The notes beneath the pieces were generated by a model that was given only the letters and a program-made list of their open reading frames with translations, did no database searches and was not told where the DNA came from. 64,000 nucleotides of DNA from Octopus vulgaris (taxonomy: Eukaryota): the NCBI GenBank assembly GCA_951406725.2, contig OX597814.1:34906001-34970000 (forward strand), in the 5' to 3' direction. The translations under genes were made by a program, and so were the position numbers. Of this stretch, positions 8,452 to 60,431 are shown in pieces; within the stretch, counting starts at the first letter, position 1, and every line of letters starts with the position of its first letter.

Positions 8452-8487
<36 letters not shown>

Positions 8488-8499
8488 AAGAGAAAGAGT

Positions 8500-9648: not shown

Positions 9649-9702
<54 letters not shown>

Positions 9703-9779
9703 ACACACACACACATACACACACACACACGCATGCATATACACACGCACACATATATGAGAGGCTGTTTATTAATACG

Positions 9780-10154: not shown

Positions 10155-10172
10155 ACTAAGTCGACAAATGAC

Positions 10173-11796: not shown

Positions 11797-12210
11797 ATTT
11801 CTTTATTACCCACAAAGGGCCTTTATACACAGAGAGGACAAACAAGGACAAACGGATTAAGTCGATTATATCGACTCCAGTGCGTAACTGGTACTTATTC
11901 AATCGATCCCGAAAGGATGAAAGGCAAAGTCGACCTCGGCGGAATTTGAACTCAGAACGTAGCAGCAGACGAAATACCTTTTTTTTTTACTACCCACAAA
12001 GGGCTCGGCATAGAGAGGACAAACAAAGACAGACAAACGGATTAAGTCGATTATATCGAACCCAGTGCGTAACTGGTACTTAATTAATCGACCCCGAAAG
12101 GATGAAAGGCAAAGTCGACCTCGGCTGAATTTGAACTCAGAACGTAACTGCAGACGAAATACGGCTACGCATTTCGCCCGGCGTGCTAACGTTTCTACCA
12201 GCTCGCCGCC
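11797..12210 (-). mobile_element. Two adjacent SINE family A copies (5'-truncated 11797-11978; full-length about 11985-12210)
   Basis: Both carry the body and the TTGTGGGTA(A/G)TAAA tail. Only the second has the GGCGGCGAGCTGG head. Confidence 0.9.
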
Positions 12211-13580
12211 TTTCATCGCGACAACGATAACATCGTTGGACGACGAAGTGAGCGGCGGGGAAAGCCGCCGCCGCCGCCGCCATCGTGGATTTTTTACGCG
12301 TGCATATTAGCTGAAGTATTTTCTTACTCCGAATGAGAATGCTAGTTTTAGAGTAGCAAGGAAAAAGGTCGTGAGGTCTAACGCTTGTAGTGATTTCCAA
12401 AGTTTTATTTATGCATTTTGGAAGTTATATGATGTGAAGTGCAAAATTGTATCCTTGACATGAATAATAATAACGTCTCCGAGTTATAGAAACAGACTTT
12501 GGTGGATGAACTTTGAAGTCAACCAAGATGACGACTTCAAAGATGAAAGATTTCTTTAGTGTAAGACGTACTGAAACAGTTATTGTTGCGCAGAAAAACT
12601 CAAAATGTGGTTGAAGAAAAGAGATGTTGAGCTTCAGTAACTAGAAATCTATGTTGAAATCTATGTTGAATAGCTAAGTGGTTGGATTTGGATACGCACT
12701 AACTCTATGTTTCTGATTGTATCTAAAATATAGATAGTAGCCTGCATAAAAGAGATGGGCTATGTCTGTGGTTTGATAGATATGCACCTTTGTAAGAAGT
12801 CAGAATTACATTATTATAGGAAATGATGGATCGGATCCATATCAGACCGAAGTCCACGAATGTTCATAAGGAGATGAGAGACTTGTCCAGTAGATTAACT
12901 GTTGTTTCTAATTTTGTTCAATTGTTCATAATATACTTATAAAAGATTTAGTGAAAGTTGGGAAGGATGAGGAAACTAAAACTCATGATTTATCGTTAAC
13001 TACTTATTCGATCTCTAAGTATTTCTTTTGGTCGTGAATCACCGCTGGTCAGCCTCTGAAAATCATGGTCACGGTGGGTTGCCAGTCATAAACATTGAAT
13101 TTATAAATGTATAATAGTAAATATAATAAATCTTTACCATGCATTTTATTTCGAATTGTGACCTATAAAAAAATTCCCTAGCGAACACAGAACATGGACT
13201 GTAAAGCTAACAAGGTTAATTTTTTTTTCCTTTACGAAGACTCGGAATGTTGAGAGAAAGAATGAAATGTTCATTGCTGTTACGTAAACTATTGTAAGCC
13301 GTTAGTTACTATGTATTAGATGGATATGTTTCTGAAATATCTAGTACGTTTTCTATGAATCGCAATTTGTAAAATGTCATTAGCCACATTTACTCCTCAG
13401 TCATCGATGAAGTTTTAATGTAAATATTTCGAAGAAATAAGGCACTTCTTCATCTAATTTTATCTGTCATTCCGCAACAAGGCGATTGTCTGAATTTATA
13501 AATGAAACATTTCTAAGTTTATTAAATGTCTCAGAGATCAAATACTTAGATTTTGTTAGTGTTGTTTAACAAGCCAGGCA

Positions 13581-13997
13581 TTACTCTCTTTTACTCTTTT
13601 TACTTGTTTCAGTCATTTGACTGTGACCATGCTGGAGCACCGCCTTTAGTCGAGGAAATCGACCCCAGGACTTATTCTTCGGAAGCCTAGTACTTATTCT
13701 ATCGGTCTCTTTTTCCGAACCGCTAAGTTGCGGGGACGTAAATACACCAGCATCGGTTGTCAAGCGATGTTGGGGGGGGGGGGGGGTTGACAAACACAGA
13801 CACACAAATATATACACACACATACATATATATACATACATATATGCGACGGGCTTCTTTCAGTTTCCGTCTACCAAATCCACTCACAAGGTTTTGGTCG
13901 GCTCGAGGGTATAGTAGAAGACACTTGACCAAGGTGCCACGCAGTCGGAATGAACCCGGAATCATGTGGTTTGTAAGCAAGCTACTTACCACATAGC
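13581..13997 (-). mobile_element. tRNA-derived SINE family B (CORE-like segment, internal microsatellite, (AAAGAGT)n tail)
   Basis: Minus strand GTGGTAAGTAGCTTGCTT...GGTTCATTCC...GTGGCACCTTGGTCAAGTGTCTT...CAAATGACTGAAACAAGTAAAA. Repeated at least five times in the window. Confidence 0.88.
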
Positions 13998-14416
13998 TGA
14001 TCTATGGTAAAGGCGATCCATATTGTACCGGGCATTTATTTTCATACATGGTATATCTAGGAATATGTTACATAATACGCTGCAGAATTTGCAAGTTAGC
14101 TTTACTACTAGCAAGAAAGCCGTCTAAATGTAAACAGTAGCTGACAAGGGAAATAACTCCTGGTAGAGTTCTCTCCCATCGAAAAAACTATCTTTCACAA
14201 CATCCTTATGTAAATATACTTGATTGACTTCCGTAATTGTCACAAGTAAATCAGTTTGTCCAGGACGTGTATTTACTGGATAACATCCAATGCTTTTACA
14301 CTTAGTACTATAAATATATAGAGAATCAAGTGCGTATAATTTATACATGCTTGAATATAGATTCTACAACATTTCTCACTGCATCACATTATCTTATTGT
14401 GATGCTAACTTACTCA

Positions 14417-14826
14417 TACTCTCATTTACTTGTTTCAGTCATTTGACTGCAGCCATGCTGCAGCACCGCCTTTTAATCGAGCAAATCGACCCCAGGACTT
14501 ATTCTTTGTAAGCCCAGTACTTATTTTATCGGTCTCTTTTGCCGAACCACTAAGTGACGGGGACGTAAACACACCAGCACCGGTTGTCAAGCAATGCTAG
14601 GGGGACAAACACAGACACACAAACATATACACACACACACACATATATATATATACATATATACGACAGGCTTCTTTCAGTTTCCGTCTACCAAATCCAC
14701 TCACAAGGCTTTGGTCGGCCCGAGGCTATAGCAGAAGACACTTGCCCAAGATGCCACGCAGTGGGACTGAACCCGGAACCATGTGGTTGGTAAGCAAGCT
14801 ACTTACCACACAGCCACTCCTGCGCC
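14417..14826 (-). mobile_element. SINE family B, full length
   Basis: Starts GGCGCAGGAGTGGCTGTGTGGTAAG on the minus strand; same body as 13581-13997. Confidence 0.9.
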
Positions 14827-14839
14827 TGGATTCTTATGG

Positions 14840-14917
14840 ATTCTTCTTCTTCTTCTTCTTCTTCTTCTTCTTCTTCTTCTTCTTCTTCTTCTTCTTCTTC
14901 TTCTTCTTCTTCTTCTT

Positions 14918-14947
<30 letters not shown>
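14840..14947. repeat. (TTC)n microsatellite
   Basis: Direct tandem repeat. Confidence 0.98.
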
Positions 14948-14948
<1 letters not shown>

Positions 14949-15057
14949 ATATTATCTATCTATCTATCTGTCTGTCTTTGTGAACGTATGCGGCTCTTTG
15001 TCTATCTGGCTGCCTGATTCAAAATGTGTACAAGCTACTATGTACACACACACACAC

Positions 15058-15240
15058 TACCTCCGAAACACGCAATGAGTCGAAACAGGGGCAGCTGAAG
15101 AAGGGGAATGTTCTTTGTGTTGTTGTCTTGTACTCTGTTTTTTCGTTGTTAAAAAAAAAGTCCGTTTCCTTGTTTTGTTTTTATGTTTTCGTTTCTCGTT
15201 TTGTTCTACGTTTATTTGTGGTGTCCTGTACCCATATATG
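15058..15240 (+). mobile_element. Microsatellite-embedded repeat, probable PLE terminal-repeat relic (second copy about 61460-61640)
   Basis: GAAACACGCA..GAGTCGAA..AGGG.CAGCTGA.GAAGGGGAAT...TGTACTCTGTTTTTTCGTTGTTAAAAAA...GGTGTCCTGTAC is shared by both loci. Confidence 0.6.
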
Positions 15241-15321
15241 CATGTATATATACATATAGATATAGGTATGTACACATATATATATATGTGTGTGTATGCA
15301 TATGTTTTATTTATTAAATTG

Positions 15322-15359
<38 letters not shown>

Positions 15360-15486
15360 AATGTGTGTATATGTGTGCGTGCATATGTATTTATATATGT
15401 ATGTTTCCATGTATGAATGACCGCATGTCGACCGTTGGCGATTTTTTTCCTCTGTCTTCCCTTTTCTGGATCTTTCCTTCTCCTAT

Positions 15487-15522
15487 GTTACCGACGAAGA
15501 GCTCCGCTCGAAACGTTAAACC
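15487..15522 (+). ncRNA. Minimal type I hammerhead-like motif (CCGACGA core) in a PLE-type terminal repeat
   Basis: CCGACGA-A-GAGC-tcc-GCTC-GAAA-CG-TT; same layout as the motif at 25923-25960. Confidence 0.55.
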
Positions 15523-16027
15523 CACCTTCTTTCCTGAGTGTCCAATAATACTATATTTGTTCCACGTCCTCGCGTTGTTGTGTTTTTTTTTGTGCTTTCT
15601 ATGTATGATGTAAGTATATATGGCTATACGTGTGTGCGAGAGTGTGTGTATGTATATGTGTGTGTGCATGTATGTATGTATGTATGTATGTATGTATGTA
15701 TGTATGTTTGTATGTATGTATGTACACATATAAATAAAATATTTTTTATCTCGCACATGTGTATTGTAGGGTCAGTTGGGCACCGTCTGTGAGAAAAACT
15801 GCAGCATGACGCAATTCACGCTTCCAGAAATTTGGAAACGACATGCTGTACTGCTTGGCATTCGCACTGTAAGTCACTTAATTTAGACAATAATATATTC
15901 ATCGCAGCCTGTATGTATGCGTATATATGTGTGTGTGTGTGAGTGTGTTCCCCATCGCCGCTTCACATCCTATCATTGTTGGTGTGTTTACGTCCCCGTA
16001 ACGTACCTCCTCCAGCCACTTGGTGTA

Positions 16028-16110
<83 letters not shown>

Positions 16111-16514
16111 CCAAACCTGTTGGCCTATGACCTCTCTACAAAATAAAGGAGGAAAATACTTCGTTTCTCCGTCAACGACAGGGGATTGTCTCCCTTTGGC
16201 TAGCAATCGCAAATGACCCTGTCATCGTGCGGCTCCCTGTTAGTAAAGAACACCCTCAACCCGTGGAGCATCCTTAACTCCAGAACGGAAGTCTTCGGAC
16301 CACGCTTGCACTTCAGGTAGTTCCTGCTGGCCTACTGGAAATCATGCGATTGACAGCCAAAGGAAGATTATCCCCTATCGTTGACAGTGTAACAAAGTGT
16401 TTTCCTTCGCCGTTTTCTAGAGAGGCCAAAGGCCAACAGGTTTGGGATCTGACGATACGCTATAAAGCTAACCTCTTTAGGACGTGGAACCCAGGGTAAT
16501 CCCATAAACCGGCC
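16111..16514 (+). mobile_element. Non-coding rod-like element ending in a type I hammerhead motif
   Basis: Long imperfect inverted repeat 16111-16445, followed by GGGAT-CTGACGA-stem II-GAA(C)-CCAG-GTA-ATCCC (16444-16503). Related to 56317-56566. Confidence 0.7.
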
Positions 16515-16552
16515 TCATCTAACTCTATGTATATATCTATATCTACATCTAC

Positions 16553-16611
<59 letters not shown>

Positions 16612-16747
16612 CTTTATTATTATAAAAGCTCCAAAAGCATCACAAAAATATCACGAAAACCTGTTAGTTAATGTCTCACGTTCCGATTCGTCGGATAGTT
16701 TAGATTTAAAATTTGTGATATTTTTGCAGCTTTCATAATAATAAAGC
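16612..16747. repeat. About 35-bp imperfect inverted repeat
   Basis: CTTTATTATTATAAAAGCTCCAAAAGCATCACAAA pairs with TTTGTGATATTTTTGCAGCTTTCATAATAATAAAG. Confidence 0.85.
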
Positions 16748-16848
16748 ACATTACTCTACTTCCAGTATTCGAGTACTGTTTTTTCCCGCCATGTTTCACA
16801 TTTATGTGTTTACCTTGGTGTATATATATATATATATATACATACATG

Positions 16849-16930
<82 letters not shown>

Positions 16931-16993
16931 CATATATATATACATATATATGCATATATGCTTATACACAGTTATGCATATATATATATATAT

Positions 16994-17026
<33 letters not shown>

Positions 17027-17177
17027 TATACATATATATATATACATATATATACATACATACATATATATATATACATATATATATATACATATATATG
17101 CATATATGCTTATACACATTTATGCATATATATATATATTACACACACATACTCTTGCGCACAGTCACACACGCGCG

Positions 17178-17210
<33 letters not shown>

Positions 17211-18034
17211 GCACACACGCACGCTCGCACTCACACACAAACACACACACATACATACATACATACATACATACATACATACATACATACATACATACAT
17301 ACATACATACATACATACATGCATACATACATACATACATACATACATACATGCATACATATGTGCATACATATAGAAGTACACACTTCTGTGTATACAT
17401 CGACAGTTCACCCGCCACACCAACTTAACCATATATTTACAAAAACCAGCAACTCTCGTAACTAAAAATGTCTTGTCGCTTTGTTAGTGATCGACTTGAA
17501 CTTCCTCAAGAACTTAAATAAAACTCAAAGAAAAATCATTCATGACTAATGAAGATCTGATAGTCTACTTGTTATCAAATTTTGTGAGTAAGATTACTAC
17601 GACAACGATTATTTGAGTTAAACAGGGGTAGATAATTCAATAAAATTGCATTGCAAAATTATTTCCCTTCTTTGCATGCATGTTTACGTAACGAATGTGG
17701 GAAATTATACCGACGCTTGATTGTATTCCACGCTGCAATTGTTTATAATTTATAGATTTTAGCAAGAAATCATGCTCTCTTTATACTGGAAATATAAAGA
17801 ATTTTAATAAGTTTTGACAATCATGCTCATTAAGGAAAAATATATGATGACTGATAGAACAATTTATAATTCATCTGGAGTTTTCTCTAGTGAGGCAGAT
17901 CTACAAATACTCTACACGAACGGTGAGAATCATTATTAATAATGAAGATGATGATGATGGTGGTGGTGATGATGATTAAAAATAATAATTACAACCACAA
18001 CAACACCAACCACATCAACAATAATAATAATACT

Positions 18035-18240
18035 TTCTACTGTAGGCTCAAGGCCTGAAATTTTGGGTAAGGGACTATTCCATTAAATCGACACCAGTGC
18101 TTAACTGTTAGTTATTTTATCGATTTCGAGAGGACCAAAGGTAAAATCGACCATAGCGGACTTTGCATCCAGAGCATGAAGACAAACAAAATACTGTTAA
18201 GCACTATATCCGGCGTGTTAACCAAAATTCCAGCTCGTCG
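18035..18240 (-). mobile_element. Old, diverged SINE family A copy
   Basis: Degenerate match to head and body; (TAT)n tail. Confidence 0.6.
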
Positions 18241-18299
18241 GTACAGGGACGTCCTCAGATCCGATACTAACTTTGGTTAGTTACATTATTTTAACCCCT

Positions 18300-18600
18300 T
18301 CAGGTCTGTCTTTAAACCCGGCTTAGGTATGTTGGTACTTGTAATTTATGGTGGATCTTTCACTCTATTCCTTCAATTTCTAAGTCAGAAAGTATTTCCT
18401 CTTCCTCGATACACAATAGGTAGTCTGCAAGACATTGTTCAATGAGTTTAAACACTCTTACGTCATCTTAAATATTCAATATTCTTTTTCCAGAATCCTC
18501 GCTTCCTTGCTTAATTTCTTCAGTAATATTCCATTGATATCTTTTTCCAGTTTTTTCCCCCACCGTGTAAGAGGATGATAAGCAGCTCATTGCTGCTAGG
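18300..18600 (-). mobile_element. Possible N-terminal remnant of an R4/Dong-like element
   Basis: Minus strand encodes EQCLAD...LSDLEIEGI, similar to the region near 39860-39920 of the larger copy. Confidence 0.35.
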
Positions 18601-18686
18601 CCTCAAAACAAATAAAGGCCGAAAAACTGTGACCAGAAGCGCAGTTTCGTTTACATAGTTGTTTTCATATTACCTTTGGCCTATAA

Positions 18687-18823
18687 GGCGGCGAGCTGGC
18701 AGAATCATTAGCGCGCCGGGCAAAATGCTGAGCGGCATTTCGTCTGGTTTAACGTTCTCAGTTCAAATTCCGCTGTGGTCGACTTTGCCTTTCATCCTTT
18801 CGGGGTCGATAAAATAAGTACCA
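18687..18823 (+). mobile_element. SINE family A, 3'-truncated
   Basis: GGCGGCGAGCTGGCAGAATCATTAGCG...GTTCAAATTCC...GGGGTCGATAAAATAAGTACCA. Confidence 0.88.
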
Positions 18824-19732
18824 ATATTACCTTGGGTCTCATACAGTCACATGTAGATAGTGACTTTAGGGTTATAATACTGTAGGTGATTTTTTTTGTT
18901 TTGAGACACCAAATATATGGGTTTTTCTAATCAATGGCTAAAGTGATCCTTCACTCCTCGCGGCTGATTTGACTTTGCCTATGGTCCGTAGTTTTATTGA
19001 GACATCACCTCTTGGCAGATGGTTGGCAAGACTTAGATCTATCTATACATATTGAGACATGTCATACAGCGCTCGTTGACATCTCCGTACTTCGTCCTTC
19101 ACTGATCACATGTATTTTCGATCATGGTCCTGTAGAACAGATATTAGGTTCCCGTCGGTCTGTTGTGACAGGATATTCGCTTGAAAATACATTTCCGTGT
19201 ACAAATATATGTAGATTCAGTTTGAATGGCCGTTGACTCTTTTGGGTCCATCATCCGCTTGCAATTGTCTGTTTTTGTAGGGTGTTCAAATATGCAAAAA
19301 TAAAAAGCAAAGAGCAAAACAAATAAGCTACAATATCATCCACTACTCCAAGCAGGCTCGGTGGGATTGCCAACTTAGTCAATTATATTAAATCAATTAT
19401 ATTACAAATCAATTATATTAAAATTGTATTTGTTCGCCCTTTTTCTCTCTCACTTTCTTATAATATCTTTATCAAGTATGATGGAGATTGTACCACACTG
19501 AAGAGGATGGTCTCGTTGAGCTGCACACATGAGTGCTTCTGTCTTTATCTTTAGGTCATTCCTCCTCATCCATAACCACCTTGCAAACTGACCGAACATT
19601 TTCTTTTCTTTCCATGTTTTTCTTTTTTTTTCATTTTTTGTTCAAAACTTGTTTAAATTTTTCTTCCGTTACACAATGTTCAGTTTGGATGACGCCGGCC
19701 TTCTTCGTGTATTTCAATAGTGGCTCTACAGC

Positions 19733-23150: not shown

Positions 23151-23790
23151 TACAGAGGGAGGTGCAAAAGTAGGTATACAGTTGTGTAAAAAGGAAACAC
23201 ATACAATACCCAATTTTATCAAAAAATAAATTTTAAAAGTTACGATAAGAGTATTTTTATAATTACGATAAATGTATTATTATAATTAATGACACTAAAA
23301 ATATAAAAAATGAGGCTAACTAATTTAATGTGCTAGTAATTTTAATGAATTAAATATTTACGGCACTCCGTCGGTTACGACGACGAGGGTTCCAGTTGAT
23401 CCGATCAAAGGAAGAGCCTGCACGTGAAATTAACGTGCAAGAGGATGAGCACACCACATACACGTGTAACCATAACGTATTTCTCAGGGAGATTCAGCGT
23501 GACATAGAGTGTGACAAGGCTGGTCCCTTGAAATACAGGTAAAACAGAAACAGAAAGAAAGAAGGAAAGAGTACCGCAAGGTTCTCCACCGTCCCCTGCC
23601 GGAGCTTCGTGGAGCTTTAGGTGTTTTCGCTCAATAAACACTCACAACGTCCGGTCTGGGAATCGAAACTGCGATTTTATGACCGCTTGTCCACTTCCCT
23701 AACCACCGGACCAAGGCGCCTCCACTAAGGAATTAACTATTATAACATTGATGTGATACTTACTGTATACCTACTTTTGCATCCCCTATA
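23151..23790. mobile_element. Tc1/mariner-type MITE with about 27-bp TIRs, interrupted by a SINE
   Basis: Left TACAGAGGGAGGTGCAAAAGTAGGTATACAGT and right ACTGTATACCTACTTTTGCATCCCCTATA; TA at both ends; AT-rich non-coding interior. Confidence 0.75.
23362..23725 (-). mobile_element. tRNA-derived SINE, head H1 + tail T2
   Basis: Minus strand GTGGAGGCGCCTTGGTCCGGTGGTTAGG...GTTTCGATTCCC...; ends GTCGTCGTAACCGACGGAGTGCC. Degenerate TSD AA(T/G)GAATTAA(A/C)TATT. Confidence 0.85.
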
Positions 23791-23831
23791 TATATAAACA
23801 GAACCAAGGCTCCTCCAAAATACTTTTTACT

Positions 23832-25829
23832 ATGGACTTCCAGAGTCTCTATACCGTCATCCCTCACCACGAAGGACTGCGGGCACTTCAACACTTTCTC
23901 GACCTCCGCCCCAACCCCGAACCCGACACCTCCACACTCATTCGTCTGGCTGAACTTGTCCTTTCTCTTAACTGCTTCTCGTTCGCGGTTAAGATCTACC
24001 AACAGGTCTCGGGAGTGGCCATGGGAACGCGAATGGGCCCCAACTATGCGAACCTGTTCGTTGGCTACGTTGAGGCCCAAATATTCTCTAATTTCACTGG
24101 TCCCACTCCCAAACTATACGGTCGTTACATTGACGACATTATCGGTGCCACCTCACTCTCCCGGGAACATCTAGATTCCTTCCTCTCTTTCGTTCAATCC
24201 TTCCATCCTGCCCTCCACTTCACCTCCACTATCTCCAACACCTCTGTCTCCTTTCTCGACATGTCGGTCAGCATTCATTACTCCACTCTTACCACCTCCA
24301 TTCACTACAAACACACAGACTCACACTCATACCTAAACTTCCCTTCCTCCCACCCAAAACACACCAAGCTTTCCATCCCCTATTCCCAATTCCTCCGTCT
24401 ACGTAGGCTCTGTAGTGACGACCATGACTTTGAGACTCAGTCTCAACACATGGCTCGCAACTTCATCCTACGTGGATACCCCCTCACCACTATCCACACC
24501 GCCCTTGCCAGAGCATGTTCCATAGGCTGTGCATCTGCTCTCACCCCCCCCCGAACCCGCGCTGTAGTCTCTCGCCTCCCTTTTCCCCTCACTTACCACC
24601 CCACGACCCTACCTCTCCAACGCACCATTCTTCGAGCTTTCCGGCATCTCCAGTCCGACCCGTCCACTTCACACCTCTTCCCTAACCGACCCCTCCCCTC
24701 CTTCAAACGAGCCCATAACCTACGAGACCTTTTGGTCCACAGCTACTTCCCTGACCCTACCTCCCAACCTGGCTCGTTCCCCTGCTCCCGCCCACGTTGT
24801 CACACTTGCCCTTACCTCTCCAACACCACCCTCCTCACTGGCACCCATCATCGACCCTATCGCATCATCAACTCCTTCAACTGCACCTCCAGTAATATCA
24901 TCTATTGCATCTCTTGCTCTCTCTGCCATTCCCTGTACATCGGACAAACGGGACGCCGCTTGGCTGACCGGTTCGCGGAACACCTCCGTGACATCCGCCT
25001 TGCCAACGACACACCGGTCTCACGCCATTTCCGCTCCACCGGTCACTCCTTGCAACACCTGTCTGTGTTCGGTTTGTCCTTGCACAGAGGGCATTCGGAT
25101 TCCCGTTTGCGCCGTGAACAGGGATTAATCTTCTCTCTTCGCTCTATTACGCCATTTGGTCTCAACTCTCCCCCCTCCTCATCTAACCTCCTCCTCGACT
25201 CCTGCTTCTCTTCGGTCCTTCATCTTTTCACCCCTACTCTCTTTCCCTCCTCTTCTCTTCTTCCTTCCTCTTCTTTCCTCTTTCTTCTTCCCTCTTCCCC
25301 TTCTCTCTTTCTCTCTGCTCCCTCACTCCCCTTCTCTCTCCCCTATCCTTCCCCTCCTCCTCTCCCCTCCTTTCCCATCGCCCTTCTCCCCCTCTTCTCC
25401 TCTTTCCTTCTCCCCCTCTCTCCCCTCCCCCTCATCTCATCTCCCCCTCACCCCCTCCTTCTTTCCTTATCCCCCCCTCATCTCTCCCTCCCCACTCTCA
25501 CCTTTCCTCTTCTCCCTACTCCCTTCTCTTTCCTTCTCCCCCTCTTCCCCTCACCCCCTCACCCTCCTCCTCATCTCTCCTCCCCTTTCCCCCTCATCTT
25601 CTCTCTCCCCCTCTCCTCCCTCCTCCTCCACTCTCTCTCTCACTCTCCTCCTCATCTCCCCTCTCTACACTACACCATACGACATTACACATCACATCAT
25701 ACATACATACAGACGTCCAGACCTTTCATACGCACCACATACTCTCTCATACACACACGCACCCTTATGTTAGGGCGAAGTCATTTGACCCTGTTATCTC
25801 CCCTATTTTCGCTCACGTTTGATCTCTGA
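23832..25829 (+). CDS. Partial PLE polyprotein: reverse transcriptase + GIY-YIG endonuclease (homology ends about 25166)
   Basis: MDFQSLYT, GVAMGTRMGPNYANLF, RYIDD, FLD, SSHP, CSRPRCHTC linker, NIIYCISC..C..LYIGQTGRRLADRFAEH, terminal PFGLN. The remainder is low-complexity read-through. Confidence 0.85.
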   Translation: MDFQSLYTVIPHHEGLRALQHFLDLRPNPEPDTSTLIRLAELVLSLNCFSFAVKIYQQVSGVAMGTRMGPNYANLFVGYVEAQIFSNFTGPTPKLYGRYIDDIIGATSLSREHLDSFLSFVQSFHPALHFTSTISNTSVSFLDMSVSIHYSTLTTSIHYKHTDSHSYLNFPSSHPKHTKLSIPYSQFLRLRRLCSDDHDFETQSQHMARNFILRGYPLTTIHTALARACSIGCASALTPPRTRAVVSRLPFPLTYHPTTLPLQRTILRAFRHLQSDPSTSHLFPNRPLPSFKRAHNLRDLLVHSYFPDPTSQPGSFPCSRPRCHTCPYLSNTTLLTGTHHRPYRIINSFNCTSSNIIYCISCSLCHSLYIGQTGRRLADRFAEHLRDIRLANDTPVSRHFRSTGHSLQHLSVFGLSLHRGHSDSRLRREQGLIFSLRSITPFGLNSPPSSSNLLLDSCFSSVLHLFTPTLFPSSSLLPSSSFLFLLPSSPSLFLSAPSLPFSLPYPSPPPLPSFPIALLPLFSSFLLPLSPLPLISSPPHPLLLSLSPPHLSLPTLTFPLLPTPFSFLLPLFPSPPHPPPHLSSPFPLIFSLPLSSLLLHSLSHSPPHLPSLHYTIRHYTSHHTYIQTSRPFIRTTYSLIHTRTLMLGRSHLTLLSPLFSLTFDL

Positions 25830-25922: not shown

Positions 25923-25960
25923 TCTTTCTGTTGAAGAGCGTAGGCTCGAAACGTAAAAGA
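25923..25960 (+). ncRNA. Minimal type I hammerhead-like motif (CUGUUGA variant) in the PLE terminal repeat
   Basis: TCTTT-CTGTTGA-A-GAGC-gtag-GCTC-GAAA-CG-TA-AAAGA. Stem I TCTTT/AAAGA, palindromic ACGT in place of helix III. Confidence 0.65.
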
Positions 25961-28773: not shown

Positions 28774-30659
28774 CAATCATTAGGTACTTAAGTTGAAGCA
28801 CCACCAAGTCAGTATTATAGCAAGCGGTATTATCCGTACAACTCAAAGTAAGGTGAATAAAATCAAAATAAGCAACAGAATATCAAGAGATGATACAGCA
28901 CGACTGTTTCAAGCGGCTCCATTTAATTGAACAATGCAATCATTACATCAATTTAAATGCACACACACACACATTGGTATGTATATCTCATACTTAATAT
29001 AAGTATATCGTTGAAAAGCAAATTTTCTGTTGTATTCGTCCGGAGATAACATCTCTTATAGAAACGCTGTGTTTCAAAGCACAGTATACATTGGCGGCAG
29101 ACAAAAATTGTCCTAGCGGCAGCTGTAAGATGGATGTGGAAAATATCGAGAAAAACATAAAACCGTTGCTTTTCGAACAACATCCCTTCTAAAATCTGTT
29201 GTGAACTACGTAATGCTGATAACTTGTTCTCATTGTCACTGTGAATCAGTGATTGGTTCATTGCAATACTGCACCAACAACGGTAATAAACCTAGATCTA
29301 AGCTTTTGGCACGAAACACTGGCTAATAAACTGTCTTATTTTACAACCCACATTGGATTTAACGTTTTTTTTTTTTTTTTAATGCCTTAAGTACGAAGAT
29401 ATATGTAACGGTAATATTTTGGAGTTCACCGGAATGGCCGAATGACTAGCAAGTCACTGGTCGTCTAGATCTTTATATCTTGCTTTCTGTCTATCCGAAG
29501 CTACACTGTGTACTGCAACAAGCTATGATGAATCGTATGAGAAATCAGGACATGTATTCCCTCCCCTGGCCATCTATTTCTGCAGATGACTTTTGTGATT
29601 ACCAATGAATGATCTTGATGTAATTTATTAAACTTCTGTCCTGAACAACTCTGACCCAGCACGGATAATAAGAAAAAACAAAATAAAATAAAGAAAAAGC
29701 AACAAAAAGCAAGCAAAGAAAATCATATTTATTTTTCTAATATATTGATTATGTAGATTTACTATAGAATCAATGGAACCACGTGAATTATTTGTATCTA
29801 ATTAAGCAAATCATTTGGATGAAAGACAATGTCTACCCCGGTGGGATTGGAATTCTAAGTGTAGAAGGATGAAGTTAAATACTGCAAATCAGTACACTTT
29901 TCTGCCAATCAATATCCTAATTTATCTCATAAATTTATGGTTATTGCAACTAAGATTGCAATTTCGTTTGCTTTGTATTTGCATAGTGACAATAAATTGA
30001 ATTGATTTGAATTGCCTTAGAGAAGATTCTGCGACTTAGTTTCAATATATAGCTGTAGATATTTCTCTCTACTTACATTGTTAGTAAAGGAAAAAAAAAA
30101 AAACTCATTTCAAACTTCTATTTGTTCTTGCTTTAGGCTCTATAGAAATATTTATATATTGTTTGAAATAATGTTCTATTAACAATATCATACAGTATCT
30201 AAAACCTATCTACTTCTCAAATCAACATTCATCATGTTAATTATATTTTTTATATTTTGTTATTCTTGAAAGGATTCAGTCACTGGAATGCGTCCATGAT
30301 GGAGCTTCAGCGTCAATAGGTTTTAGTCAATTACATCAGTTTCACTACATATTTTTGCCTGAAAATTATTTTTATCGATCCTCAAATATTGAACCGCAAG
30401 AAACAAGCCTTCAGATCTATACGGATGCACATCCATATGCATCCATCCATCCATCCATCCATCCATCCATCCATCCATCCATCCATCCATACATACATAC
30501 ATACATACACACACACATACATACATACATACATACATACATACATACATACATACATACATACATACATGCATACATACATACATACATACATACATAC
30601 ATAATACATACATACATAATACATACATACATACATATATATTATATATTATATCATTA

Positions 30660-30890
30660 GGCGGCGTGCTAGCAGAAATGTTAGCACGCCGGTCGAAATG
30701 CGTAGCCGTATTTCGTCTGCTGCTACGTTCTGAGTTCAAATTCCGCCGAGGTCGACTTTGCCTTTCATACTTTCGAGGTCGATTAAATAAGCACCAGTTA
30801 CGCACTGGGGTCGATATAATCGACTTAATCCGTTTGTTTGTCCTTGTTTGTCCTCTCTGTGTTTAGCCCCTTGTGGGTAGTAAAGCGAAT
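30660..30890 (+). mobile_element. SINE family A, full length
   Basis: Head, B-box, body and TGTTTAGCCCCTTGTGGGTAGTAAAG tail. Confidence 0.9.
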
Positions 30891-32193: not shown

Positions 32194-34650
32194 TGTTGTT
32201 GGTATCCTTTTTGTCTCGGCAGACAATAGAGTTGCGCATAAAATAATCTAGTCCGGCTTTTACATTTCATGTCCTAATACATCTCCTGGTGTGGCTGTAT
32301 AGTCCTATCCTGCACAAACACTCCCTCTGGCAGGTGCCGCAAATTTAACGAAGACTTTGCCTGGCTGGTTGTAATGTCATAGTTTCTTGTTGACGTCTTT
32401 TCTTGTCTTTCCATTTCTCCTCTTTCTCTATGTCACTCCTTTGTGTTCCCTCTTTTATGGTACGTCGCCAATCGCTACGGTCACTGGCAACTGCTAATAT
32501 TGATGTTGCAGGCATTCCTGTCCCTTTTGCAAACATCCTTGTATCGTAAGAAGGGTCTTCCCACAGACCTAGTTCCCCTAGCAAGCTCTCCGTTGAGTAT
32601 GTCCTTGGGGATTCTGCCATATTCCATACGGCTAACATGTCCAAGCCATCTCATACGTCTTTATGTGAGGTGTGCAAACATGCTTGGTATTCCTGCTTGC
32701 TTGAGGACATCTTTGTTGGGGACATGATTCTGCCATTTGATGCGATGGATTTTCCGGAGGCAGCGCAGGTGGAAGATATTTAGGCGACGTATCGCGTCGT
32801 ATGGCGTGTGTATGGCGTCCAAGTCTCACTTCCATTGCGTAGAGTGCTAAGTACACATGCCTGGTAAATCTTCATTTTTGTGGTCTTGGTCAGCTTATTG
32901 TTGTCCCATGCCCGTTTGGATAGTTGGGCCATCACAGCAGCTGCCTTGCCAATGCGTATATTGAGCTCAGCATCAAGGGATAGGTTGTAGGTAACGGTAG
33001 AGCCAAGATAGGTAAACATCTCCACCCCCTGTAGTCTGTGGTCTCCAATATGTATGTTTGGGATGTACGATGTAGCCTGACCCATGATGGTGGTCTTCTT
33101 GAGGCTGATAACTAAGCTAAAGTTGTCACATGCTTGCTCAAAGCAGTTGATGAGCCTTTGTAGGGCTTCTTCTATGTGTGATACCAGAGCGGCATCATCA
33201 GCAAATAACATCTCCTTGATCAGGATGCCTCTGATTTTGGTCTTGGTACGCAGACGCGAGAGATTGAACAGTTTCCCATCACTTCTACTGTGCAGAAACA
33301 CTCCATCATCTAATATCTCAAAGGCATGTGACAGCAGCAGCGAGAAGATGCCAAATAATGTATGAGCAAGGACACAACATTGCTTTACATCATTTTCTAT
33401 TTGGAAGGCGGCTGATGTTGAAGCATTGTGCTGTATGGTACCTTGCATGTAATCATGGAAAGAAGTGATGATTCTCAGCAGCTTTGGTGGACATCCAATT
33501 TTTTGGAGTAGAATGAAGAGGCCTTTTCTACTTACCAAGTCAAAGGCCTTTGTCAGATCAATGAAGGTCATATATAATGGCATTTTTTGCTCTCTGGACT
33601 TTTGAAGTTGGCGTATGGAGAATATCATGTCAATAGTTGATCTGCTTCTTCTAAAGCCACACTGCGATTCTGAATAAATTCGAGAAGCAAGCAGTTGCAG
33701 ACTGGACGGGATAATGCGAGCAGAGGCCTTTCCAACAGTGCTTAGAAGAGATATTCCACGGTAATTGTTACGATCACCACGGTCACCTTTGTTTTTGTAA
33801 AGCGTAATGATGCTAGCATCCCGAATATCCTGAGAGATTGTACCCTCTTCCCAGCACTGACATAGAAGCTCGTGAATGTGCCGAAGCAGGATGGTGTTTT
33901 TGCCGGTTTTGATGATCTCTAAGGCGATGCTGCCTTTTCCCGGAGCCTTGTTACTTGCTAGGGAGTCAATAGACTTGGTGAGCTCTGCTATAGATGGCAG
34001 ACCGCCAAGTTCACACATTAGTGGCAAGATCTTGATACCCTCGATTGCTACCTTGGTCTCTCGTGAGTACAGATCCTGGTAGTACTCCACCCATGTATCC
34101 ATTTGTTTGCTTTGGTCCTTGATGAGATCCTTAGTAGTTGATTTCAGAGGGGCTGACTTGGTTGCGGATGGACCGAGGGCCTTCTTCAAACCGGCATACA
34201 TCCCACGGGTGTCGCCACTGTCAGCAGCTGACTGGATACTCTGACAGATTTCCTGCCAATACCTATATGCACAGCCTCTGGCAGTCAGTTGGGTTTTATT
34301 TCTTGCCTTTCTGAGTTCTTCGAGTGACTTTGTAGAAGAATCACTCTTGTGTTGCATCAAAGCTGCACGCTTTGCTTCGATAACTGTTTCTAGCTCTGAG
34401 AGCCCAGCACTGAACAAAATCTGGGATTTGCCTTTCTCTCATGCCGAAAGTATCTATTTATGTGGTATACAAAGCTTCCCTGATATACTCCCACCTACTT
34501 TCAGCAGAGGAGGTTGGGCAGCTACTGAGAGCAACCTTGATAGAAACAGCAAAACATTATCGCAGTGTAGGGTCCGAGGTTCTGGCAATGGTCGGCCCAT
34601 TTTCTTGGAGTGATGGACTTTTTTAGGCAAAATTTTCACCCTGCTTCTTA
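32194..34650 (-). mobile_element. 5'-truncated RTE-clade LINE
   Basis: ORF 32780-34417: NYRGISLLS, ESQCGFR, FIDLTKAFD, EMLFADDAAL, FTYLGS. Frameshifted C-terminus; 3' end followed by (CAA)n. Confidence 0.92.
32780..34417 (-). pseudogene. RTE reverse transcriptase ORF fragment (545 aa open stretch)
   Basis: RT motifs as above; flanking frameshifts; no intact endonuclease domain. Confidence 0.85.
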
Positions 34651-39559: not shown

Positions 39560-42500
39560 TACCCTACCTCAGTTTATGAGAGACAACAATTTCCGAAAAA
39601 GCTCTGGTTGTAATAGCAAAATTTAAGCTGGATCATTAAGGGAAGGCCTCTCGCTCGGTAGTAGTTCAGTAAATATGCAAACTCACAACAGCTGTTATCC
39701 TAATACAGCATCAGTAGATAATAGAACAATGAGGAGGAAGTGGACCAGCGGAAAAAGCAGGATAGTGACGCAGTGCTACTTAGAAAGTGAAACTAAAAGA
39801 AGGGGCTATAGAAAACTGGTGTTAAAACTTTGGGTAGAGAAGGGTATGTCTAAGATTAGTTGATCAAGCTAATGCTATTATAAGAAAGTTGATAACGGAA
39901 CTGGAGGTAGAAGAGATCACAAGAGAACTAGAAAAGAAAGACCTGGCAGTAGGAAAGACAAACAACAACATAAGAAATACTGCTCAAACCAAAGAAGAAG
40001 CTAAAGAAAAAAAAAACAATAGCCCTACCAATAAGGAAGGACAACTAGCACCAACACCTTAAGTTATCTAAGTGAGGAAGATCAGAAGTTGCAGGAAGTA
40101 AAGAGTAAAGAAGTAGGAAAATGATTGCCAGCATTAAAAGGCACCAACAGAAGGAATCTACAAGAAATGACTAGGAAAGTAGATTATGTTATCAGTAGGG
40201 TAGATACTAAAAATATAGGCGACACTAATTTACTGATCCATGCAGGAGGGGTAGTAGTGACCAGAAAATTCGATGCCTCACGAGGAAAGATTAAAAAGAG
40301 CAAATGTGGAAAAGGAGACTACAAAGTAAATTGAAGACTTTAAGACAAGATCTGAGTAGAATAGAAGCCTGGAAACTGAACAAGTTAGGAAACGCAAGAT
40401 GCAAATCTTCTCTTGAGAAAATATACTTAGTCAAAGAGAAAGGATTTGGGACAGTAATAGAAGAGAGTTGAAACAGCGTGTCATAGCAGTAGCAGGCAAG
40501 CTCTCCAGGTATCAGAAAATAATAAGTCAGTACCAACAGAATAGATTATTTGAGATAGACCGGAGGAGATTTTATAACCAAATAAATAGAGGAGAACGAA
40601 GTACTGAAGACGAGAAACTTAATGCAGAAGTTAGAGAATTCTGGAGTAATATTTGAGATAAGCCAGTCAATCATAATGGGGATGCAGTATGGTTAAAGAA
40701 AGTGAGGGAAGAAGTAGTGAGTGAGAAGTAGCCAGATCTAAGATTAGCTAGTGTATTAATGAATAAAGTGTTAAGGAAAATGCTGAATTGGAAGGGCCCA
40801 GGACTAGATTTAGTTCAAGGTTACTGGCTAATGAAATTTAATAGTTTTTCATGGGACGCTGAGGGAACAACTTCATGATTGCCTTAATGGAGGAATAATA
40901 CCAGATTGGATGGCTAGAAAGAGGACAATACTCATCATGAAAGATAAGAGCAAGGGTAATACAGCTAGCGACTATAGACCACCACTTGTTTACCATTAGT
41001 GTTGACAATCAGAATTTACTGCGAGAAGAGCAGAAAGGTTGCGGGAAGAAGGCTGGAGAAAGGCATGATCTATTATACATAGACAAAGCAGTTCTAAATG
41101 AAGTAAAAGCTAGAAACAAAAATCTAACAATAGCATGGATATATTATAGGAAATCCTATGGCATTACCCCTCACTCATAGATAAGTGAATATTTGAGTAT
41201 ATTCAGTATAGCAGACAACATAAGACAATTAATTAGCTGTAGCATGAAGAAATGGAAAGTAGATCTCTACTCAGGTGACACACTGTTAAGGAAAGTTAAT
41301 ATCAAAAGAGGAATTTTTCAGGAGGACTCGTTGTCTCCTTCAATATTTGTCTTATGTTTGACCTCCCTCAGTTTAGTATTAAGGAAGGCAAAAACAGAGT
41401 ATCAGTTCAGAAATAGTAAAGGAAGAATCAACCATTTGCTTTACATGGTTGATCTGAAGCTTTTAGTAGAAATGAAAAAGAGATAGATTCCTTAATACAG
41501 ACTGTAAGACTCTTCAGCAAAGATATAGGCATGGAATTTGGCATAGATAAGTGTGCAATATTAGTCATGAGAAAGGGACAGGTAGTCAACAGCGAAGACA
41601 TCCTATTACCAGATGACTAGACATTAAAATCATTGAAAGGAGGCGAGAGTTATAAGTGTCTAAGAGTATTCGAATCTGACTACCGAAACGAAAACAAAAA
41701 TCGAGAAGGATTACAAGCTAGTGACGTCAAAGCTGAATTGTCCGAATGTAGTGAAGGCTATAAATACTCGGGCAGTATCATTACTTGGATACACAGCACC
41801 TTTTGTAAATAGGACAAAAACTGAATTATCAAAATTAGAAGAACTAGGAAGGAATTCAATATCAATGGGGAACTCCAATCAAGGGCAAGAGTAGCAAGAT
41901 TATACCTAACTAGAAAGGAAGGTGGAAGAGGGTTAATATCAGTAGAGAACTGCGTGGAGTTAGCTAGAGTAGATATAGACTCCTATGTAGGTAGTTGTGA
42001 AGAAAGTTTATTAAAAGTTGCTAGAGTCACTGTAAGACACAGAGAAACCAAAACACCAAACGAACTTAAAAATAAAGACAAAAAAAGACCATAAATTATC
42101 TGACTGGCAGGGGAAGGCGTTGCAAGGTAGATTCCCAAAGATAATTCCATCAATTAGTAGTAGTGAGACATGGTTATGGCTGCAAAAAGGGAAGCTGATG
42201 AGGGAAGAAGAAAGTTTGTTAGTAGCTGCACGAGATCAAGCATTAGATACTAATTGGATTAAAGCCAAGATAGATGAAAACTATGTAGATTCCCAATGTA
42301 GATTATGCAAATCAAAAGAGGAAAGCGTTACTCACATAGTAAGTCAATGTAGCATGCTGGCACAGAAAGAATACAAGAGAAGACATGACAATCTAGGGAA
42401 AGTAATACACTGGGAGCTATGTAGAAATCTAGGATTTGAACATACTGACAGATGGTATGAACACGAACCTGGTGAAGTACTAGAAAGTAAGAAATATAGG

Positions 42501-42576
42501 ATGTTGTGGGATTTCAGCATTCAAACTGACGGAGTAATAGAAGCTAGGAGGCCTGATTTGCTAGTAGTAGTAGTAA

Positions 42577-50008: not shown

Positions 50009-50393
50009 ACTCACACCGAGAATTATGGGCTAATCCTTCCGGATTGTGATAGCAGAATCATAGTGCCTGGAAATCAATGCTGGTAACAATACATAGGTCC
50101 AACTTTATATTATTCATATGGCAAGAATGTGCATAGAACTGGCTGGCTGGAGTATTATATTATTCACAAGAGAAATCCGGTTAGATCTGTGAAAGGCAAT
50201 TACTTTTGGTCATTTAGTTTGTTACTCACGATTATGGTCACTCCATAGCGTCAAGCTATGGAGTCACCATACTCATTATTGCACCAAGAAGTCTACCTCA
50301 GTTGAATAGATAAATTAGGAGAGGATGAAAGAACTGAGAGAAGTCTACCCTCTAGGGCGTATATATATATTTGTATATATATAAAATAGTTAA

Positions 50394-50623
50394 GGCGGCG
50401 AGCTGGCAGACACGTTAGCGCACCGGGCGAAATGCTTAGCGGTATTTCGTCTGCCGTTACGTTGTGAGTTCAAATTCCGCCGAGGTCGACTTTGCCTTTC
50501 ATTCTATCGGGGTCGATAAATTAAGTACCAGTTACGTACTGGGGGCGATATAATCGACTCAATCCCTTCGTCTGCCCTTGTTTGTCCCCTCTATGTTTAG
50601 CCCCTTGTGGGCAGTAAAGAAAT
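50394..50623 (+). mobile_element. SINE family A, full length
   Basis: Complete head, body and tail; TATATATATTTGTATATAT occurs near both ends (probable TSD). Confidence 0.92.
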
Positions 50624-55041: not shown

Positions 55042-56316
55042 TATATACGTATGTATGTATATATATGTATGTATGTATATGTTTCTTTCTTAATCTCTCC
55101 AGCAGCATGAACAAAAGAACAGTTGAAAGCCAGGCATGATATCACACGAGGCTCATAAAACGATTCGATAATTTGAGCAACATCGCACTGTTTTTGACAC
55201 GCCAAGTCTTTCAGTTCCTTTTCTCAGTTCTCTTAGTTCTGTTTTTTTTTGTATTCTTTTATTCTTTTATACCATTAACGTACACACACACACACTTACA
55301 CTTATATATACGCACCCTCCAGCTCATCCTCTCTCTCTCTCTCTCACTTTCTCTAACATATTGCTTCTTGCTCTCCTTGCTGTTTACTTCGTCTTCGCCA
55401 TCTTTCCTGCAATCGTTATACTTTCTAGTATTCCTGTACATGTTAGTTAATAAAATAGAGGGGAAAATATATTTTTCCATTCTATATGTCCTTTATTATT
55501 TTTATTCTTGTACTGTTCCTGCTGCCGTAGTTGCTGTTGTTATTGTTGTTATTGTTGTCCTCACCACTGCAATTTCTGTTATTGTATTTGTTGGTCTTAC
55601 TTTTGTGGTGTGGTTAATGCTGGTGCTATTGTTGTTTGACTATTGCTGTCTGTTTTGCAGTTCTTATTTTTGCTAGTATTGTAGTATTGATGTTCGTTAT
55701 TGATGTTCTTGTTGGTGTTGCTGTCACAATTGTTGTATGAATATTTGCTGTTGCTGTTGTAAGTGTTGTTGCTGCTGTTAGCATTGTACTATAGATATTT
55801 ATATTTCTCTGTTTTTTTTTGTATTTTCCCTTTTTCCTTTGTTCGTTGTTGTTATTGTTAATATTGGCATTTTCACTATTGTTGTTGTTGTTAGAATTGG
55901 TAGAGGCGTTGATGTGTGCTGTTTTTGTGACGAATGATATTTTTATTGTTTTCTTAGTGGTTTTTATTACTGTAGTGTGTCAGTTGACGTTATTGTCGTA
56001 GTACTTGTAGGACTGGTGATGATATTGATGGTGTTACTATTGAAATTTATTGTTATTTTTAGAGAATATTCAGTCAGTATTGTGGCAGAGTATTTTTTTG
56101 TGGTACTGTGAATCTAGTTTTGGGGATACTTTTAGATGTAGTTCTCGTCATTGGTGGCTCTAGTGGCGATTAAATGTTACCTGCATTGGCATTGTTGTCA
56201 TAGATGTATACACACACATATATATATACACACACACACGTATATATATATATATAGTCCGTAAAAAACATAAATCCGATAGACGAAGCACACTCTAGAT
56301 ATAGAGCAGTATATAT

Positions 56317-56559
56317 TAAAAATGGGGAAGGCCGGTTTATGGGATTGCCTTAGGTTTCCCATCCATAAAGGGTTTAGCATAATGGTGTCTCGTCAGATCC
56401 TAAAACCCATTGGCTCAAGACCTCTTAAGAATATTCATAAGAATATTCTTATTCTTAAGAGGTCTTGGGTCAACAGGTTTGGGAAACTGACGATACGCCA
56501 TAAAGCTAAACCCTTTATGGATGGGAAACCTAAAGTAATCCCATAAACTGGCTTTCCCC

Positions 56560-56566
<7 letters not shown>
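56317..56566. mobile_element. 250-bp imperfect palindrome with a hammerhead motif on each strand
   Basis: Arms are reverse complements. CTGACGA at 56487-56493 (+) and 56396-56390 (-), each followed by stem II, GAAA and ATCCC. Confidence 0.75.
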
Positions 56567-56638
<72 letters not shown>

Positions 56639-58984: not shown

Positions 58985-60431
58985 CGTGTGTGTGTGTAAA
59001 ATGACACACGCGCATATATCTATATATAGAAAGTGAGTCTGTTTTTCTCAGTCTCTCTAAATATATATGAAATTTGCGTGTCTGTATATACATTATTATA
59101 TACATTATGTATATGTATATATAGGCAATATATATATATATATATATATAGGCACATACACACATACATACATATATAATATATATATATTGTAGGTATA
59201 TTTTATATGTATGCGTTCATACACAAATGCCTGTACGTTTGCTTTGTGTGTGCATACGTATATGTGCTTGGTTGTGTGTGCTCGTGTGTGCGTGTGTTTG
59301 TATGTACATGTGTTTGCCTGTGTGCATGTGTGCGTGCGTGCGTGTGCGTGCGTGTGCGTGAGTGTTTGTATGTGTGCGTATTTGTATGTGTTTTGTGCGA
59401 TTTCCCGATACAAATCAAACACCTATTGAGAAAATCTCATTATTTTAATTATGTACACACGCAAGCAAGCGCAAAATACACTCTCATATAAATATTTCTT
59501 TTCTTTTCTGTTCTGTTCTTTCTATGTTTCCTTCTTTGTCACACCGTCTGTCTCTCTTCCTATAGACAAACACGCAATCTCGAATACAGTTCGTTTGTAA
59601 CTCTTTTTTTTTTTGTACAATAAACTCAACAGTGCATGTTGCACAGTAAGTAAAAATGTTTGTAAATTGGTGATATATGTTCTGTTAAGATAACAATCAA
59701 AGATTTCATACTGCATTTTCAGACGCTTTTTTCTTTAACGAACGAACTCGATGAGTAAGTAGACGAGTCATGGCTGAAATCAAACAGTTGTTAAACGTAT
59801 GAGAAATCACGTAACCTGTTCTCTTAGATGGTATTAAATTTCGGTTAGTATGTCAGCAGATTCTTCTTCACCAATAAATATTTTAAAATATAAATAAATA
59901 AGTAATAAATAACTTGGTGATACGATGGAAATGGTTCTGCTTAGAGTATTAGTATTCAGTATTTAGTAAGGTTTGTTTGTTTGTTTTTTTACTTTACATG
60001 AGACCAATATTTTAAAATCTGTTATTCCCCATGGATCCCGTGTTTATATGTTTCCCTTCAGACGAATTTTGACAATGCACCGATTTAACCTAGACGATAA
60101 AATATACGTTCTGTTGTTAGGTTGATTGAGTCATTGAAAGAAACTATGTTGTTTATTAAATATTCTGTTGTTTTTTTTTATTCGGTGTGAACGTTTTTTT
60201 CTCCAAGGCATTTTCGCTACAGGTAGGAATTACAGTTTTAGCCGATTAAAATCACTATTTGCATTTATTTTTATGACAGAGGCGGTGTTGACAGGGAGGC
60301 TGTAACACCACTTTATATTGTTTCTGTTAAATAACAGGTTTGATTTTTAGTAGTTTGGTAAATGTACGTAGGCACAATTAGGAATAATATTCTTAAATTC
60401 TAACATTCTTATTGCATGTATTCTCGGCATA

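What the first reader, a model, noticed from the sequence alone, without database searches (positions are those of the whole stretch)
56317..56566. 250-nt palindrome with hammerheads in both polarities
Seen: plus strand GGGAAA-CUGACGA-..CCAUAAAG/CUUUAUGG..-GAAA-CCUAAA-GUA-AUCCC; minus strand AGGAU-CUGACGA-...-GAAA-CCUAAG-GCA-AUCCC. With 16444-16503, three copies each carry different defects but give a canonical consensus GGGAU-CUGACGA...GAAA..GUA-AUCCC. The centre is much shorter than in the 16111 copy. Established: ribozymes in both strands facing each other in a rod are characteristic of viroid-like circular RNAs, but head-to-head PLE repeats can give the same layout. Inference: an ambisense-ribozyme element family.
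Basis: partly seen in the sequence, partly recalled or inferred. Interest (0 to 1): 0.75.

Follow-up and report, generated by a model that had tools for sequence, protein, structure and literature searches.

The report
Head-to-head Penelope retroelement end fragments
The palindrome and its two mirror-image hammerhead motifs are real, but they are two short 3' end pieces of a Penelope-like jumping gene joined head to head in a TA repeat, a known insertion footprint, and likely not a viroid-like RNA.

Summary
Both arms are the 3' end of a Hydra-clade Penelope-like retroelement (PLE) in a probable octopus genome. The arm lies just downstream of a GIY-YIG endonuclease remnant in 27 of 30 loci, and two loci carry RT, linker, endonuclease, this hammerhead and tail in one piece. 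About half of sampled insertions are head-to-head pairs, so these are not sporadic. But the palindrome is not the amplified unit: 5' break points differ in all 58 pairs, and no column marks left versus right arms. Exactly one arm carries a 55-nt tail (57 of 57 scorable pairs). Hammerhead cores decay as fast as the rest (6.5% vs 6.6%). RNA reads show no cleavage ends or circle joints. Inverted ends with one tail are published PLE features. The scan reached this reading before on another piece of this genome (e1-9549524). The one-tail rule with independent 5' ends suggests priming from both target ends.

The parts
56258..56310 (-). PLE 'tail': about 55-nt 3' extension on the left arm only, ending against a TA-rich microsatellite
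   Evidence: Window 56457-56264 matches positions 2052-2246 of the long copy L109 at 85%; tail on exactly one arm in 57 of 57 scorable pairs
56311..56433 (-). Left arm: 5'-truncated PLE 3' end (3' UTR / pseudo-LTR)
56341..56401 (-). Type I hammerhead motif, predicted inactive (U16.1 to C, triplet GCA; stem II mismatches)
   Evidence: sequence; inactivity inferred from established hammerhead core rules, not assayed
56434..56449 (.). Copy-specific junction of the two truncated 5' ends, AT-rich with short nested inverted repeats
   Evidence: centres differ among loci; no RNA read depth at 56437-56447
56450..56574 (+). Right arm: 5'-truncated, tail-less PLE 3' end running into (TA)n
   Evidence: matches positions 2077-2199 of L109 at 87%
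56481..56542 (+). Type I hammerhead motif; core and GUA triplet (56535-56537) intact, stem I closing pair and one stem III pair broken
56565..56634 (.). (TA)n target microsatellite; no target-site duplication can be read
   Evidence: (TA)n preference of Hydra PLEs in PMC8557442 section 11
16108..16211 (-). Second insertion (related subfamily): inverted arm that ends before the hammerhead
   Evidence: 81% inverted match to 16345-16448
16246..16515 (+). Second insertion: endonuclease C-terminal remnant (about 16258-16345, one stop), 3' UTR and hammerhead 16444-16503 with A13 to G
   Evidence: 73% to positions 1901-2181 of L109; translation

Best explanation
This is a single, old insertion of a Hydra-clade Penelope-like retrotransposon made of two heavily 5'-truncated copies of the element's hammerhead-bearing 3' end joined head to head in a (TA)n repeat, so the second hammerhead is a mirror duplicate and both are likely decaying passengers. 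Shown: the arm is the 3' end of an RT-endonuclease element; 5' break points are copy-specific; one arm has the tail and the other does not; the two arms share subfamily variants; the cores decay neutrally. Inferred mechanism (about 0.5 against fold-back and other routes; the 0.95 is for the PLE origin): the GIY-YIG endonuclease cuts both strands of (TA)n; each DNA end primes reverse transcription on the element RNA, one at the distal start (with tail) and one about 55 nt upstream (no tail); both cDNAs stop early and their ends are joined. The ancestral hammerhead was likely functional in the autonomous element, probably as a dimer or with protein help.
For: Arm within 450 nt downstream of an endonuclease C-terminus on the same strand in 27 of 30 protein-selected loci. 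L109 holds RT (FDVDNFYPSI, YRDD), CxCx5C linker, GVVY..YIG endonuclease, hammerhead (90% to the window arm) and tail (90%); L110 adds RWK and DKT and an inverted 3'-end piece at its 5' end. A 47-residue RT-region segment of L109 is 39 of 47 identical, counted by eye, to Hydra-1_Obim in the supplement of PMC8557442. tblastn of the 751-aa P0002 covers RT to endonuclease of L109, E 3e-69. 58 of 58 pairs have distinct 5' end pairs, range 1554-2193 on the reference. One tail in 57 of 57 scorable pairs, 37 of 37 outside the tail-selected set. No tail-arm versus tail-less-arm diagnostic column (lowest Fisher p 0.0098, Bonferroni limit 0.0004); arms of one locus share 48 non-majority letters against 14 expected, p 0.0002; core changes 68 of 1054 versus 484 of 7317 outside, p 0.89; both cores intact in 7 of 32 pairs. 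Papers describe inverted 5'-truncated copies with a tail on one end and two RT start sites with extension of both strands.
Against: Pfam found no family in nine RT or endonuclease fragments at a meaningful E-value, nor in P0002 or P0003, so clade assignment rests on motifs, tblastn and a by-eye comparison, with no tree. Many 5' ends cluster at reference 2060-2100, so a short non-autonomous source RNA cannot be excluded, and alignment-end noise inflates the count of distinct break points. Hammerhead covariation is weak overall (21 and 38 of 500 shuffles reach the observed values); only one stem III pair shows a clear subfamily switch, 26 C-G versus 15 U-A. All samples are biased to well-conserved copies. 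The two-ended priming step is not shown.
Confidence: 0.95

Rival explanations
1. Same PLE origin, but the inverted arm is made by fold-back self-priming: one cDNA (or an antisense template) snaps back at its truncation point, copies itself, and the endonuclease resolves the hairpin at the AT-rich site.
For: Arms share variants; many junctions are flush or overlap by a few letters, and the window's centre has nested inverted repeats; self-priming was proposed for PLE inverted junctions in PMC3846280.
Against: The simple form predicts that the tail-bearing arm always reaches further 5'. The tail-less arm is longer by more than 30 nt in 11 of 57 pairs and the tail arm in 7 (5 versus 6 outside the tail-selected set), with differences up to about 750 nt; 5' ends are uncorrelated (rho 0.17, p 0.48, 20 pairs). 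Later deletions could account for some cases.
Confidence: 0.3
2. An ambisense-ribozyme, viroid-like element: the 250-nt rod is itself the replicating unit, cleaved on both strands and circularised.
For: Rod fold with hammerheads in both polarities; the 40 best-scored matches to the whole palindrome are all two-armed and mostly 235-260 nt; family reads occur in RNA-seq in both orientations.
Against: That size uniformity comes from the query: single-arm, motif and tail queries give hammerhead-to-hammerhead spans from -24 to 1425 nt and many single arms. Centres are copy-specific, cores decay neutrally, both cores intact in only 7 of 32 pairs. One hammerhead per strand cannot release a unit-length RNA. 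The hammerhead fold costs about 74-76 kcal/mol against the rod. 98-100% of laid RNA reads run on into unlike sequence, with no pile-up at the cut site and no go-back joint listed.
Confidence: 0.02
3. A MITE or foldback DNA transposon with long terminal inverted repeats derived from a PLE end, inserting at TA.
For: Short, dispersed, inverted-repeat element flanked by TA.
Against: Ends are asymmetric (tail on one side only), internal break points vary, many copies are single arms, and arms continue into a retroelement ORF.
Confidence: 0.02

Closest known systems
Hydra-clade Penelope-like elements, in particular Hydra-1_Obim of Octopus bimaculoides (Craig et al. 2021, PMC8557442; read: passages, section 11, supplement parts 2 and 52 and search hits)
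   Same: RWK, DKT, YRDD, CxCx5C linker, C-terminal GIY-YIG with CxxC and CxH, about 2.3-2.5 kb, (TA)n target, type I hammerhead with 4-bp stem III and 1-nt loop near the 3' end; one RT-region segment 39 of 47 identical by eye.
   Different: Hammerhead and 3' UTR sequence differ from Hydra-1_Obim; long Asn/Ser/Thr-rich insert inside the endonuclease; most copies cut to under about 210 nt; inverted pairs frequent, whereas Hydra-1_Obim is listed with no pLTR.
Adineta vaga Penelope elements with inverted pLTRs (Arkhipova et al. 2013, PMC3846280; read: passages)
   Same: Head-to-head inverted ends, tail on one inverted pLTR, palindromic junctions, Asn-rich inserts in the ORF.
   Different: Tail 31 bp there, about 55 nt here; different clade; here the insertions are usually only the two ends.
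Poseidon PAc of Anolis carolinensis (Frangieh et al. 2024, PMC11167929; read: main text and start of methods, parts 1-2 of 4)
   Same: Two 3' end points separated by a tail; AT-rich target; hammerhead near the end. There the protein extends both strands and the hammerhead is dispensable in vitro.
   Different: Different clade; not tested biochemically here.
Non-LTR retrozymes (bioRxiv 10.64898/2026.07.22.740005; read: abstract, introduction, part of methods)
   Same: Type I hammerhead derived from PLE ends, non-coding, dispersed.
   Different: Retrozymes are direct tandem repeats; here same-strand hammerhead repeats were flagged in few loci and the pairs are inverted.
Viroid-like circular RNAs with ribozymes in both polarities (recalled, no paper read)
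   Same: Rod fold, hammerhead motif on each strand.
   Different: No constant unit, no selection on cores, no circle joint or cleavage ends, and direct linkage to a retroelement ORF.

Membership tests
EN+ Penelope-like element | RT followed by C-terminal GIY-YIG endonuclease in one element | tested here: met
   L109 and L110 by motifs and tblastn with P0002; Pfam itself was blank
EN+ Penelope-like element | Hammerhead motif in the 3' repeat | tested here: met
   27 of 30 endonuclease loci have it downstream; 87% of cells paired in 46 arms
EN+ Penelope-like element | Variable 5' truncation, inverted truncated partner, tail on one end | tested here: met
EN+ Penelope-like element | Partial-tandem pLTR arrangement | tested here: inconclusive
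   L113 has two same-strand hammerheads around RT and endonuclease pieces plus an inverted RT piece; one rearranged locus only
Hydra clade | RWK and DKT motifs | tested here: met
   both in L110; L109 has a degenerate DKT position
Hydra clade | CxCx5C linker; CxxC and CxH around conserved E and N | tested here: met
   L109, L110, L111 linker; endonuclease ends
Hydra clade | (TA)n insertion preference | tested here: met
   TA run of 8 nt or more at the 3' end in 80 of 135 arms; no shuffled control in this microsatellite-rich genome
Hydra clade | Placement in the clade by RT phylogeny | not tested
   reference proteins were seen only in a supplement and were compared by eye
Type I hammerhead ribozyme | Self-cleavage | not testable with these tools
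   no assay; no read ends at the predicted cut
Viroid-like ambisense circular RNA | Constant unit amplified as a whole | tested here: not met
Viroid-like ambisense circular RNA | Both ribozymes kept intact | tested here: not met
   7 of 32 pairs; core rate equals background
Viroid-like ambisense circular RNA | Circular RNA of both polarities | tested here: inconclusive
   no go-back joint in three cDNA runs, about 6% of each read, species match uncertain
Non-LTR retrozyme | Direct tandem units each with a hammerhead | tested here: not met
   same-strand repeats flagged in 4 of 105 locus rows
MITE | Symmetric ends and uniform length | tested here: not met

The most novel reading that the evidence does not exclude
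The family records a two-ended priming mechanism for PLE integration: both ends of a double-strand cut in (TA)n prime reverse transcription on one RNA (or one RNP dimer), each at a different one of the two start sites, which forces exactly one tail per insertion, shared variants between arms and independent 5' ends. Thousands of short pairs in this genome would make the open question of how PLEs form inverted ends countable.
Probability: 0.4. Interest if true: 0.4.

Novelty: new member of a known kind. Interest (0 to 1): 0.17.

Why it matters
Mostly as a caution: a genomic rod with hammerheads on both strands, the usual signature in searches for viroid-like RNAs, arises routinely from PLE insertions. 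The modest new content is an octopus Hydra family whose hammerhead differs from the one published for Hydra-1_Obim, and counts (one tail per pair, independent 5' ends, shared variants) that bear on how PLEs build inverted ends, which PMC8557442 lists as unresolved.

Tried and rejected
Rfam scan: swamped by microsatellite hits to miRNA models, no hammerhead among the rows shown. The repeat finder on the whole window: almost only microsatellites. Pfam on RT and endonuclease fragments: blank. A position-blind sample of 0.8 Mb (16 blocks of 50 kb) held only one hammerhead arm and one ORF fragment, too few for a single/double ratio; it gives a rough 3,500 loci (95% range about 90-19,500). The look-up of sequencing runs: no RNA holder listed. 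The constrained fold was out of register and is discarded; one search replaces it. Whole-palindrome search rejected as a sample for arm number because it ranks two-armed copies first. Paper searches found no paper on this specific family; the closest is Hydra-1_Obim. Figures of the papers were not seen. Earlier scan finding e1-2188474 is unrelated.

Full report
Observation. The arms 56317-56433 and 56450-56566 are 101 of 117 identical without gaps and the stretch folds as one rod. The plus copy has an intact core but a broken stem I closing pair and stem III pair; the minus copy has U16.1 to C; the 16.4k copy has A13 to G. The 16.1k insertion has only one hammerhead. The window lies in a 2.8-Gb genome. 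That it is an octopus is inferred from the one protein hit, named as Octopus bimaculoides, and from closeness to Hydra-1_Obim.

A family. The palindrome query gave 1,811 candidates, 40 scored, all two-armed; a single arm gave 1,576; a 25-nt motif matched 46 times against 0 for the control. Alignment of 18 loci showed a shared extension of about 55 nt on one side only, TA repeats on the other, and a different centre in every copy. A blind 0.8-Mb sample held one arm, roughly 3,500 loci with wide error. Arms differ from the majority by a median 7.9% (137 arms, biased to conserved copies), so the family is old.

What the arm belongs to. Read in hammerhead sense, longer arms run upstream into the C-terminus of a GIY-YIG endonuclease; the window's own 16.1k copy contains such a remnant. 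Of 30 loci picked by that protein, 27 have the arm on the same strand within 450 nt downstream. L109 is a near-full-length, broken copy of about 2.25 kb between TA repeats with RT motifs, CxCx5C linker, endonuclease split by a low-complexity insert, hammerhead (90% to the window arm) and tail (90%). L110 adds RWK and DKT and an inverted 3'-end piece at its 5' end. These are the marks of the Hydra clade in PMC8557442 section 11. One L109 segment is 39 of 47 identical by eye to Hydra-1_Obim, but the published hammerhead and 3' UTR of that family differ, so this is a related family. Against: Pfam was blank on all fragments, and no tree was built. The window's left arm maps to reference 2052-2246 (85%) and the right arm to 2077-2199 (87%).

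Is the palindrome the amplified unit? Three samples were classed. Arm query, 28 loci after dropping the window itself and one duplicate: 12 with two inverted hammerheads, 3 partly inverted, 13 single. Motif query, first 30 of 46: 14, 2, 14. Tail query, 29 after dropping the window: 15, 8, 6. Inverted pairs are therefore regular, not sporadic (two-armed loci have two chances to enter the first two samples). After removing 12 duplicates, 93 loci gave 58 pairs, all with distinct 5' end pairs, although alignment-end noise inflates this and many ends cluster at 2060-2100. The script scored one tail in 56 pairs; L005 has a tail split by a deletion and L248 is cut by the locus edge, giving 57 of 57 scorable, and 37 of 37 outside the tail-selected set. 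No column separates tail-bearing from tail-less arms. Arms of one locus share 48 non-majority letters against 14 expected (45 pairs, p 0.0002) and are slightly closer than arms of different loci (11.3% versus 12.6%). So both arms were copied from the same source at each insertion (later gene conversion is not excluded) and then drifted.

Are the ribozymes maintained? Core positions outside CpG changed in 68 of 1054 cells, other positions in 484 of 7317 (p 0.89); 47 of 98 arms and 7 of 32 pairs keep intact cores. The fold was probably real in the source element: 87% of cells pair in 46 arms, and the top stem III pair switches between C-G (26) and U-A (15) across subfamilies, but overall covariation is only borderline against shuffles. 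The 4-bp stem III with a 1-nt loop matches published Hydra hammerheads; small palindromic stem III motifs are thought to work as dimers with low activity (PMC4209133, passages). Inside the palindrome the hammerhead fold is about 74-76 kcal/mol above the rod. In three RNA-seq runs (about 6% of each read; species match uncertain) 144-190 family reads were laid, mostly under 90% alike, 98-100% running on into unlike sequence, none 99% alike to this locus, with no pile-up at the cut site and no go-back joint listed; the long copy gave the same picture. This fits passengers in host transcripts but does not exclude rare circles.

Mechanism. Shown: structure, truncation, one tail per pair, shared variants, neutral decay. 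From papers: inverted 5'-truncated copies with a tail at one end are typical of PLEs; the Anolis PLE protein cuts and extends both strands, starts reverse transcription at two sites that bound the tail, is predicted to dimerise, and does not need its hammerhead in vitro. Inferred: each target end primes at one of the two sites and the two short cDNAs are joined head to head. Fold-back of one cDNA is the main rival; its simple form predicts the tail arm to be the longer one, but the tail-less arm is longer by more than 30 nt in 11 of 57 pairs and shorter in 7, and 5' ends are uncorrelated in 20 pairs.

Verdict. Real feature, ordinary explanation: a new family of a known PLE clade showing a published insertion footprint. 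An earlier scan note on another piece of this genome reached the same class; my reading was set before I saw it. Interest 0.17.

Noticed in passing
window 23757-25829 (+): 690-codon open frame of another PLE: RVT_1 (E 4e-7), weak GIY-YIG (E 0.009) and a CxxxxCxxC-type linker, suggesting a Neptune-like clade; a short hammerhead-like motif with C3 to U follows near 25933-25960.
   Followed up: partly
window 32783-34438 (-): 552-codon RT remnant (RVT_1 E 8e-24), RTE-like by recalled motifs.
   Followed up: no
window 1181-2379 (+): Frameshifted RT remnant, L1/Tx1-like by recalled motifs (RVT_1 E 4e-17).
   Followed up: no
window 42036-42575 (+): C-terminal zinc knuckle and restriction-like endonuclease remnant, Hero/R4-like by recalled motifs (zf-RVT E 2e-4). 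Earlier scan notes report rearranged hammerheads behind Hero elements in this genome; not checked here.
   Followed up: no
window 60269-60364 (-): Weak tblastn match (E 0.3) to the RT-endonuclease linker region of P0002; possibly a scrap of another PLE.
   Followed up: no
L021:623-1342, L081, L083, L091, L109:4733-5299: Asn/Ser/Thr-rich in-frame inserts of varying length between the two halves of the GIY-YIG motif, recalling the Asn-rich inserts in Adineta Penelope ORFs; one such piece is annotated as a host protein (P0001).
   Followed up: partly
L113:2150-5167: Complex insertion: inverted RT piece, hammerhead, RT-to-endonuclease piece, second hammerhead.
   Followed up: no
window 11982-12212, 30659-30884, 50392-50622: Another dispersed repeat of about 230 nt in three copies, 88-91% alike; SINE-like, not examined.
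   Followed up: no
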